This document shows, piece by piece, positions 54,701 to 57,700 of a DNA stretch of 64,000 bases. Numbering within the stretch: the first letter of the stretch is position 1; each line of letters opens with the position of its first letter. The notes beneath the pieces are model-generated. The model was not told the origin of the DNA. It ran no database searches and saw only the letters and a program-made list of their open reading frames with translations. The DNA is from the human T2T-CHM13v2.0 reference genome, Homo sapiens. The translations under genes were made by a program, and so were the position numbers. The stretch lies in the NCBI RefSeq assembly GCF_009914755.1, contig NC_060940.1. One strand, given 5' to 3'.

Positions 54701-57700
54701 GCAGTGGCAGTGTGACGCTGTTCTCCGTGGTGAGCAGGGCCACCCCTGGGGCCGCTTTGGGGCAGCCCTGACAGTGTTGGGGGATGTGAATGAGGACAAG
54801 CTGATAGACGTGGCCATTGGGGCCCCGGGAGAGCAGGAGAACCGGGGTGCTGTCTACCTGTTTCACGGAGCCTCAGAATCCGGCATCAGCCCCTCCCACA
54901 GCCAGGTGAGGCCCGTCTTCAGCCTCTTTTAGTCCCAGCTCCTTCCCATGTCCTGAGTTCACTGAACGCAGCCTCCTGTCTCTGTCACCATTCCCTTCCT
55001 TGTTGCAGTGGTTTGTCAGCTAAGCACACGTCATCTCTCTTCTCTCCTTTGTTCCAGAAAGCCTTCCATCTGTGTGGGCAGCTTAATGGTTAGGAGAGCA
55101 GACTTTGAGGTCAGAGGCCAGTTCAAATCCCTGGCCGGGCCGGCCATCCTGAGCTGTGTGGCCTTAGGCAGGTGACTGACAGCCTTGGTCAGCCTTAGTT
55201 TCTTTCTATAAAACGCAGAAATGATAAAACCAACTCCTTAGGCCTCTTGTAGAAATAACAGTGAGAGTGCTAAGGCAATCACCACTGCACTCACTGAAGG
55301 TTCATGAGTGACCTGACCAGTGATGAATACACAAATATATTATACGCCTATTGTTACGCTCTTACTTCCTCACCAACCTGCACCCTCATGACGGGTTGGA
55401 CCCAAAGAGCCCCCTTCTCTGTTTGGGGGTCCCGAGGTCCTCACCCTGTTTGCTTTTTTTTTTTCTTTTTTTTTTGAGACAGAGTCTCACTCTGTCGCCC
55501 AGGCTGGAGTGCAGTGGCGTAATCTTGGCTCACTGCAACCTCCCGAGTAGCCTCCCGAGTAGCTGAGATTATAGGCTTCTGCCACCATACCCGGCTAATT
55601 TTTGTATTTTTAGTAGAGATGGGGTTTCACCATGTTGGCCAGGCTGGTCTCGAACTCCTGACCTCAGGTGATCTGCTTGTCTCAGCCTCCCAAAGTGCTC
55701 GGATTACAAGCGTGAGCCACTCCGCCTGGCTGTATTTGCTTTCAATTTCTATCTCCACATCTCTCCTTTCCAATTTCTGTCTTCTGATCCTCTTTCACCA
55801 CAATCTGTTTTCCAAATCTCTCCTCTCAAACCTTTCCCATCACCTCCCTTTGACTTCCGCCACTCCCATCTCTCTGGCCAGCGGGTCGCTGGAAAGATGA
55901 GCAAACGGAGGGACAGACAGATTGAGTCCTTGCCCACGGCCTCGTGGCTCATACGTGGAGGAGTCAGAATTGGAACTAGAGATTGATTGAATGAATGACA
56001 CTCGGGTCACCAGGACACCCTTCCAATCTCCACTCCTACATCTATTTCTTAGCAATCATCTCCCGACTCCTACCTCCTCTTTTCAGGCTCTTGTTGGTGA
56101 CATCTGTTCACAGCTCACCCCTTCTCTCCCTTTGCCACCATCCTACCTCCATATTCCCCTTGTTACTTATTTCCAACTTCTTCCCCCATCTTCCAGCCTG
56201 ATTCACCCTTTTCTCTTCTGGCCAGCGGATTGCCAGCTCCCAGCTCTCCCCCAGGCTGCAGTATTTTGGGCAGGCGCTGAGTGGGGGTCAGGACCTCACC
56301 CAGGATGGACTGATGGACCTGGCCGTGGGGGCCCGGGGCCAGGTGCTCCTGCTCAGGTAGCGACTCCCCAACATCCTGCCCTCCCGCGCTGTGTCTGATT
56401 CACCGGTGCTGCCTCCCCAGCCACGTTATCCTCCCAGAAGCCAGTGTTCTGTCCTCCCCACTACTCTGCCCCTCAGGAGTCTGCCGGTGCTGAAAGTGGG
56501 GGTGGCCATGAGATTCAGCCCTGTGGAGGTGGCCAAGGCTGTGTACCGGTGCTGGGAAGAGAAGCCCAGTGCCCTGGAAGCTGGGGACGCCACCGTCTGT
56601 CTCACCATCCAGAAAAGCTCACTGGACCAGCTAGGTGTGTTTCCCCCATAAAGGGGGCCCAGGCCCCTCATTCCATTAGGGGCCCCAATGCCATCCTGAG
56701 GATGGGATGGGCCTAGGAATCCAATCTTACCTCCACATTCACTCACCACCTGTGCCAGAAACCTGGCTCATTCTCTCCCCTCTTCCTCACACCTGGGCCT
56801 GTGGATTCTGTCTCCAGGGCTGACCTGAAGTCCACCCAGTTCTCTCCTGGGCCCCAGCCACTGCCTTCCCCCAGCCCCTGATTCCCTTCCACCTACACCA
56901 AAGTCATGACATGAAGCAGTTCCCACATCTCTTCTTGCACCCTCCCACCCATTTTCCACAGAGGAACTAGAGTCGACTGGTCCTAAAATGCAAATCTGGG
57001 CTCCTCACTCCCCTGCGTAACCCGCCTTGCATTTACAAAGACTCCAGTCCTTCCCTCCAGTGCCCTCTCTGACTTGGCCTCCTGGCCTCTCTGACCTCAT
57101 AGCATCCCACTCCTCCTTACTAGGCACGCTTTTCGTAAATGCACCAGCTTTGCTCTCCCTTCTGGTCTTAGGCCCTGTTCCCATGGTCCCGGATGTTCTC
57201 CCCACTCCTCACCTGGCTCCTGCTCATTCTCCAGGTGGCTGCTTAGCCATGGTCCATCCGGGATGGCAGCCTGGCCAGGTCCAGCAAGCATGCTCTCCTT
57301 AGAACCACAGGAGAGCCTCCCCTCGCACTGATCACGCTGCAACATCACGTCCCATGTGCTTGGCTTCTTTCTTAGATTGTGAGGTTCATGAGAGTGGGGG
57401 CCATATCTATCTAGCTAGCTAATCTATCATCTATCTGCCAAATCTGTCATCTATCTATTATCTATTAATCTAATCACCTATCTAATCTATCATCTATCTA
57501 CCAATCTATCACCTATTATCTATCATCTATCACCTATCTAATCTATCCTCTACCAAATCTATCATCTATTATCTATCATCTGTCTATCTAATCTGTCACC
57601 TATTTAATCTATCATCTATTTATCTATTATCTAGCCATCCATCCATCCATCCATCCATCCATCCATCCATCCATCCATCATCTATCCGTCCATCTATCTT

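What the first reader, a model, noticed from the sequence alone, without database searches (positions are those of the whole stretch)
55731..56356. Fossil breakpoint in ITGAD: a dead exon-15 start sits exactly where an ITGAX-derived patch begins
Seen: after a ~150-nt pyrimidine-rich stretch, 55871-55892 reads tctctggccag|CGG GTC GCT GG (R-V-A-G), a paralogue of the real exon 15 starts (ITGAX R-I-A-G, ITGAD R-I-A-S). The next bases (aaagatgag..., 55893) begin a ~460-bp tract highly similar to ITGAX 14151-14614 (intron 14 end plus exon 15). The tract starts in mid-MIR, and MIR-like sequence continues upstream only in ITGAX. Similarity ends at the exon 15 donor. Inference: ancestral ITGAD exon 15 was broken after ~11 nt and repaired by template switching to ITGAX, which supplied a complete replacement exon. 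Present ITGAD exon 15 would then be a graft from ITGAX.
Basis: partly seen in the sequence, partly recalled or inferred. Interest (0 to 1): 0.7.

Follow-up and report, generated by a model that had tools for sequence, protein, structure and literature searches.

The report
Stranded exon start, ITGAX-copied patch
In the human immune-cell gene ITGAD, the old start of one exon lies stranded in an intron and a 334-base piece matching the neighbouring gene ITGAX supplies the working start; this is likely the scar of an old DNA-break repair in a primate ancestor, and the protein is essentially unchanged.

Summary
Observation confirmed. ITGAD 55892-56225 matches ITGAX 14150-14483 at 311/334 bases without indels, and a 22-base exon-15-start look-alike (19/22 to ITGAX) abuts it. 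An old repeat spans the junction only in ITGAX, so ITGAX is the donor. Protein-database ORFs that read through the intron in other mammals gave the outgroup test: a cat-like and a ruminant-like ITGAD run from the stranded flank straight into exon 15 with no patch, a beaver-like one matches it only locally, a dog-like one fits no class, and a horse-like ITGAX has the patch-type flank. So the stranded site is very likely the ancestral ITGAD acceptor. Two first-reader points fail or stay open: outgroup exons start R-I, not R-V, and the exon body cannot be shown to be an ITGAX graft, since exons 11-15 are repeatedly homogenised in mammals. Best mechanism: a break at exon base 11, one-sided invasion of ITGAX exon 15, copying into its intron, then end joining (about 0.65). 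Likely simian-era; not dated directly. A clean fossil of a known repair outcome, with no shown functional effect.

The parts
55377..55438 (+). Ancestral ITGAD intron-14 sequence, upstream of an Alu-like insert
   Evidence: Aligns with residues 7-28 of the intron read-through ORF P0040, 52/61 codon-compatible, above all 100 shuffles
55453..55730 (-). Alu-like insert that interrupts the ancestral flank (limits approximate; family name recalled)
   Evidence: T-run start and short repeated flanks seen; P0040 aligns on both sides of it
55731..55881 (+). Ancestral ITGAD intron-14 end with the stranded splice acceptor (AG at 55880-55881)
   Evidence: Matches flanks of ITGAD-like ORFs P0040, P0134 and, locally, P0123; not alignable to live ITGAX, ITGAD or ITGAM flanks
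55882..55892 (+). Stranded first 11 bases of the old exon 15
   Evidence: Part of the 19/22 match to the ITGAX acceptor region; base 55892 is shared with the donor start (1-base microhomology)
55892..56225 (+). ITGAX-derived intron-14 end (the patch), carrying the acceptor now used
   Evidence: 311/334 identical to 14150-14483, no indels; same class as the flank of horse-like ITGAX ORF P0135
55895..55977 (+). Cut-off half of an old interspersed repeat (MIR-like, name recalled)
   Evidence: Profile positions 162-245 only
55984..55986 (+). In-frame TGA met 34 codons after the stranded acceptor
   Evidence: Translation from 55882
56226..56356 (+). Live ITGAD exon 15, homogenised with ITGAX exon 15; origin of the body undetermined
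   Evidence: 122/131 identical to ITGAX exon 15, 23/26 four-fold sites against 14/24 with ITGAM
14038..14235 (+). Longer copy of the same repeat in ITGAX intron 14, spanning the donor breakpoint
   Evidence: Profile positions 31-245, E 4.9e-20
14150..14614 (+). Donor: ITGAX intron-14 end and exon 15, intact

Best explanation
The 22-base motif is very likely the ancestral ITGAD exon-15 start, left stranded when a break about 11 bases into the exon was likely repaired by copying 334 bases of ITGAX intron 14 plus the ITGAX exon start into the gap. Inferred steps: the downstream broken end paired with the similar ITGAX exon 15, was extended backwards through the exon start into ITGAX intron 14, came off in the middle of an old repeat, and was end-joined to the upstream broken end at a 1-base overlap. 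The gene survived because the copy brought a complete acceptor, restoring a 131-base exon. The longer shared flank then likely let exon 15 be homogenised further by ordinary gene conversion. Shown: the anatomy, the direction, and the absence of the patch in two outgroup ITGAD-like sequences. Inferred: the repair route and a simian-era date.
For: Anatomy and sharp left edge. Repeat cut in ITGAD, whole in ITGAX. Of 18 ORFs with an intron-like flank, 3 match the stranded flank, 7 the ITGAX/patch flank, 7 ITGAM, 1 none; the 3 have exon-15 peptides nearest to felid (43/44), beaver (44/44) and goat/musk-deer (41/44) ITGAD, and P0135 of the patch class is nearest to horse ITGAX (43/44). P0040 and P0134 anchor at the stranded acceptor above all 47 other acceptors (16.0 vs 9.2; 14.2 vs 7.7) and not at the live ones; P0134 aligns without gaps over 55800-55893. 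[quoted passage not shown] The donor start lying 334 bases from the paralogous exon follows naturally from this route. Within-species exon-15 protein identity is 0.93-1.00 in 7 simian pairs and 0.81-0.91 in 5 non-simian pairs.
Against: Outgroup intron data are short translated ORFs from unnamed records, not genome alignments. P0121, identical to dog ITGAD exon 15, fits no flank class. P0123 matches only 55758-55803 and fails the anchored test. Six of 7 patch-type ORFs could not be assigned to ITGAX; P0124 is nearest to rhinoceros ITGAD (42/44) over camel ITGAX (41/44). The right junction is hidden in a homogenised exon, and the end product does not distinguish this route from duplication followed by deletion. 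No primate DNA other than human was available, and no tarsier or lemur ITGAX protein was obtained.
Confidence: 0.65

Rival explanations
1. Two steps: a tandem duplication of about 42 kb joined ITGAD exon-15 base 11 to ITGAX 14150, and a later unequal crossover between the copied ITGAX exon 15 and the second ITGAD exon 15 removed the rest, giving the same sequence.
For: It gives the same product; the genes lie in tandem on one strand, and cats appear to carry two ITGAD-like genes in the name lists, so the cluster does duplicate.
Against: It needs two events and a breakpoint that falls by chance near the paralogous exon; no leftover copy exists in the human genome.
Confidence: 0.15
2. Replication template switching: a stalled fork jumped from ITGAD exon-15 base 11 to ITGAX intron 14 without homology, then returned to ITGAD by exon-15 homology.
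Against: The first jump has no homology to aim it, yet lands 334 bases before the paralogous exon; no templated or untemplated extra bases are seen at the junction.
Confidence: 0.12
3. The stranded motif is a chance look-alike or a later local duplicate, and the similarity to ITGAX is ordinary conversion or shared ancestry of the intron.
For: Exons 11-14 are converted anyway; the stranded flank does not align with any human paralog flank.
Against: 0 matches in 100 shuffles; outgroup ITGAD-like ORFs use this flank directly before exon 15; the repeat is cut at the junction.
Confidence: 0.04
4. The patch arrived through an RNA intermediate (retrotransposition) or from a lost ITGAX-like third gene.
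For: A lost donor cannot be excluded; outgroup ITGAX-type ORFs often score slightly higher against the patch than against human ITGAX.
Against: The insert is unspliced, has no A-tail and ends inside exon homology; it is 93% identical to extant ITGAX with no indels.
Confidence: 0.04

Closest known systems
[quoted passage not shown]
   Same: One end primed by homology, copying runs into non-homologous donor sequence, and repair ends by microhomology or end joining.
   Different: Those are reporter assays in cultured cells, with sister-chromatid donors in the paper read; here it is a fixed germline product between paralogs 42 kb apart, and the route is inferred.
Interlocus gene conversion between tandem paralogs (PMC3790853, search listing only; general concept recalled)
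   Same: Non-reciprocal copying, intact donor, a tract far more alike than the flanks.
   Different: Ordinary tracts overwrite homologous sequence and end in homology; this one adds 334 bases and leaves the old acceptor in place. The genes are old paralogs at 56-82% exon identity outside exons 11-15, not a recent segmental duplication.
Cryptic or poison alternative 3' splice site
   Same: The stranded acceptor still has AG, a 166-base AG-free zone and a crude score like the live one (8.8 vs 8.5), with a stop after 34 codons.
   Different: No annotated transcript in the supplied gene table uses it and no protein fetched reads it; use was not tested.

Membership tests
HR with non-canonical (end-joining) termination | One junction lies in homology between recipient and donor | tested here: met
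   Similarity runs through exon 15 and stops at its donor site; the exact point cannot be placed
HR with non-canonical (end-joining) termination | Other junction non-homologous, with microhomology or added bases | tested here: met
   One shared base at 55892/14150, no similarity to the left; decay since then blurs this
HR with non-canonical (end-joining) termination | Insert is a contiguous copy of the donor running outward from the homology | tested here: met
   334 bases, no indels, repeat cut mid-way
HR with non-canonical (end-joining) termination | Single event, no duplication intermediate | not testable with these tools
   Needs primate genomes; the product is the same under the two-step rival
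Interlocus gene conversion tract | Donor unchanged, tract identity far above paralog baseline | tested here: met
   93% against about 40-65% in flanks of exons outside 11-15
Interlocus gene conversion tract | Both ends in homologous sequence, recipient sequence replaced | tested here: not met
   Left end is non-homologous and the old acceptor is kept
Interlocus gene conversion tract | Tract groups with the donor in a tree | tested here: inconclusive
   Exon-15 peptide tree: 0 starred branches, 8 label changes; exons 17 and 18 split cleanly by gene
Retrotransposed insertion | A-tail, spliced or transcript-like insert, target-site duplication | tested here: not met
   Read from the sequence: unspliced, no A-tail; the repeated 22-mer is explained by paralog homology
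Poison alternative acceptor | Spliced in transcripts and removed by nonsense-mediated decay | not testable with these tools
   No RNA data; only sequence features scored

The most novel reading that the evidence does not exclude
One repair accident in the simian ancestor re-wired concerted evolution in the CD11 integrin cluster: by giving ITGAD exon 15 an ITGAX-type flank it pulled that exon into the converted block, while exon 14, near-identical between the genes in other mammals, was released in simians; the stranded acceptor survives as a simian-specific poison splice site that tunes ITGAD levels.
Probability: 0.12. Interest if true: 0.6.

Novelty: new member of a known kind. Interest (0 to 1): 0.33.

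Why it matters
It is an unusually legible germline fossil of homology-primed repair ended by end joining, caught because the old acceptor and 11 exon bases were left behind. It also shows that ITGAX and ITGAD exons 11-15 evolve in concert in many mammals, so trees or orthology calls built on this region mislead. No change in protein function is shown. I found no paper on it in the searches listed in the full report; older subscription papers on CD11 gene structure could not be searched.

Tried and rejected
Aligning the stranded flank with live ITGAX, ITGAD and ITGAM flanks: no signal, z at or below 0.1. The search of 50%-identity representatives was swamped by bacterial FG-GAP proteins and added no informative flank. 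The exon-15 tree was unresolved. R-V as the ancestral start was rejected. A protein using the stranded acceptor was sought among all fetched proteins: none. The acceptor matrix does not discriminate: 3 of 76 AGs in the intron outscore the stranded site and 5 outscore the live one. With looser gap costs P0123 and P0134 also get moderate scores against patch-type flanks (z about 2 to 2.6), though only the stranded flank beats all 100 shuffles. Richardson and Jasin 2000 is not held in the library.

Full report
1. Observation. The sequence is as described. ITGAD 55892-56358 aligns without gaps to ITGAX 14150-14616 with 32 differences: 23 of 334 intronic bases and 9 of 131 exonic. Left of 55892 there is no similarity; right of the donor the best intron-15 match is 38/53. 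The human genome holds only these two copies. The 22-mer at 55871-55892 matches the ITGAX acceptor region at 19/22 and the live ITGAD one at 16/22. A pattern made from the two sites has 2 window matches and 0 in 100 shuffles. Among 102 splice-flank 22-mers it is the only extra plus-strand copy at 18/22 or better.

2. Direction from the human sequence. An old interspersed repeat crosses the donor breakpoint. A profile built from 30 other genomic copies matches ITGAX 14038-14235 over model positions 31-245, and ITGAD only at 55895-55977, positions 162-245. The left part of ITGAX taken alone matches weakly (E 0.013). The repeat is therefore cut at the ITGAD junction, and ITGAX is the source. The name MIR is recalled.

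3. Outgroup test. No other mammalian DNA was available, but the protein database holds short ORFs that start in intron 14 and run into exon 15. One search returned 21; I examined 20 (P0139 has no flank), of which P0138 has too short a flank and P0136 is spliced. The other 18 were scored, as codon profiles, against the human flanks with the shared acceptor motif removed: 3 match the stranded flank (P0040 z 6.0, P0123 z 5.5, P0134 z 7.9), 7 match ITGAX and the patch, 7 match ITGAM, and 1 (P0121) matches none. By exon-15 peptide the three are nearest to ITGAD of cats (43/44), beaver (44/44) and goat or musk deer (41/44); P0135 of the patch class is nearest to horse ITGAX (43/44). P0040 aligns in order with 55377-55438 and 55737-55893, on both sides of a human Alu-like insert. 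P0134 aligns without gaps over 55800-55893 (78/94 compatible). In a test forced to end at the acceptor, P0040 and P0134 pick the stranded site above all 47 other acceptors and score near zero at the live sites; 4 of the 7 patch-type ORFs beat their decoys at a live site. Against: P0123 fails the anchored test; P0121, identical to dog ITGAD exon 15, fits nothing; six patch-type ORFs cannot be assigned to a gene, and P0124 is nearest to rhinoceros ITGAD by one residue. On balance the stranded flank is very likely the ancestral ITGAD intron end (my estimate 0.9).

4. Of 56 distinct ITGAD-class exon-15 peptides, 46 have I at position 2; V occurs in 11 proteins, 10 from muroid rodents and 1 from a bat. 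The V of the stranded copy is likely a later change. The patch is also not the only exchange: human exons 11-13 are 94-95% and exon 14 86% identical between the genes, with alike introns, against 56-82% for the other exons compared, and exons 13-14 are shared with ITGAM too. Within-species protein pairs show exons 11-14 at 0.86-1.00 in colugo, two squirrels, horses and armadillo, with exon 15 at 0.81-0.91; in simian pairs exon 15 is 0.93-1.00 (7 pairs) and exon 14 is 0.80-0.86 (4 pairs with the exon) (three pairs mix related species, and pairs are not independent). Squirrel monkey shares a private residue in both genes' exon 15, so exchange continued. The exon-15 tree has no supported branch, whereas exons 17 and 18 split by gene (28 rows chosen from the fetched set). 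A full graft of the exon body is thus neither shown nor excluded.

5. Mechanism. The product has one non-homologous end with a 1-base overlap and one end inside homology. The simplest route is a break at exon base 11, invasion of ITGAX exon 15 by the downstream end, synthesis back through the exon start and 334 intron bases, release, and end joining. This explains why the donor piece starts near the paralogous exon and why 11 exon bases appear twice. Such ending of recombination by end joining with microhomology is described in PMC5104497 (abstract and passages); PMC4888836 (passages) gave background only. Duplication then deletion, or fork switching, give the same product and are less economical. 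All routes are inferred.

6. Age. The event postdates the split from lineages that keep the old flank. Intron divergence of 6.9% (95% interval 4.4-10.2%) dates the last homogenisation, a minimum age; by recalled primate rates this is about the human-macaque to human-marmoset range. Alanine at exon position 17 is shared by the simian ITGAX and ITGAD proteins fetched and absent from tarsier, lemur, loris and colugo ITGAD, but also arose in rabbit, one vole and echidna. A simian-stem date is plausible, not shown.

7. Function today. The stranded acceptor keeps its AG, a 166-base AG-free zone and a crude score like the live site, and would meet a stop after 34 codons. No transcript in the supplied annotation uses it and no fetched protein reads it. 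It is likely silent because no donor defines a short exon after it (inference).

8. Literature. Searches pairing ITGAD or CD11d with gene conversion gave 0 papers; broader ones listed nothing on this locus by title or abstract start, and I did not open them. Searches were for the mechanism. Subscription papers on CD11 gene structure from the 1990s are outside the library and may have noted the high identity; no supplements were read.

9. Verdict. A real, well-supported fossil of a known repair outcome in a cluster with widespread exon exchange; no shown functional consequence. Interest 0.33; new member of a known kind.

Noticed in passing
window 4666-5099, minus strand (annotated LOC100422479): An inverted, intron-containing 434-base copy of exon 13, intron 13 and most of exon 14 inside ITGAX intron 9; 375/428 identical to ITGAX 6307-6736, slightly less to ITGAD and ITGAM. 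A second templated insertion from the same exchange block.
   Followed up: partly
window 5385-6772 and 53704-54913: Exons 11-14 with introns 11-13 form a longer converted block between ITGAX and ITGAD, seen as near-identical peptides within colugo, squirrels, horses and armadillo.
   Followed up: partly
L010:5932-6418 (ITGAM) against window 6320-6805 and 54461-54913: ITGAM shares exon 13, intron 13 and exon 14 with both genes at 87-90%, a three-way exchange.
   Followed up: partly
window 6555-6764 and 54696-54905: Both ends of exon 14 differ between ITGAX and ITGAD in simians, while the exon is 96-100% identical in the non-simian pairs.
   Followed up: no
window 5625-5985 and 53944-54108: Intron 11 carries a G-rich repeated unit whose copy number differs between the genes (407 against 211 bases).
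   Followed up: no
window 56195-56197: An ITGAD-only change makes an extra AG 29 bases before the live acceptor that scores higher than it on the crude matrix.
   Followed up: no
P0121: An ORF with the dog ITGAD exon-15 peptide whose flank fits no human flank class, with a faint, non-significant likeness to the ITGAX type; dogs may have had their own rearrangement.
   Followed up: partly
P0008, P0011, P0012, P0019: Database entries for macaque and baboon have an ITGAX-like front and ITGAD-like back; likely fused gene models, not checked.
   Followed up: no
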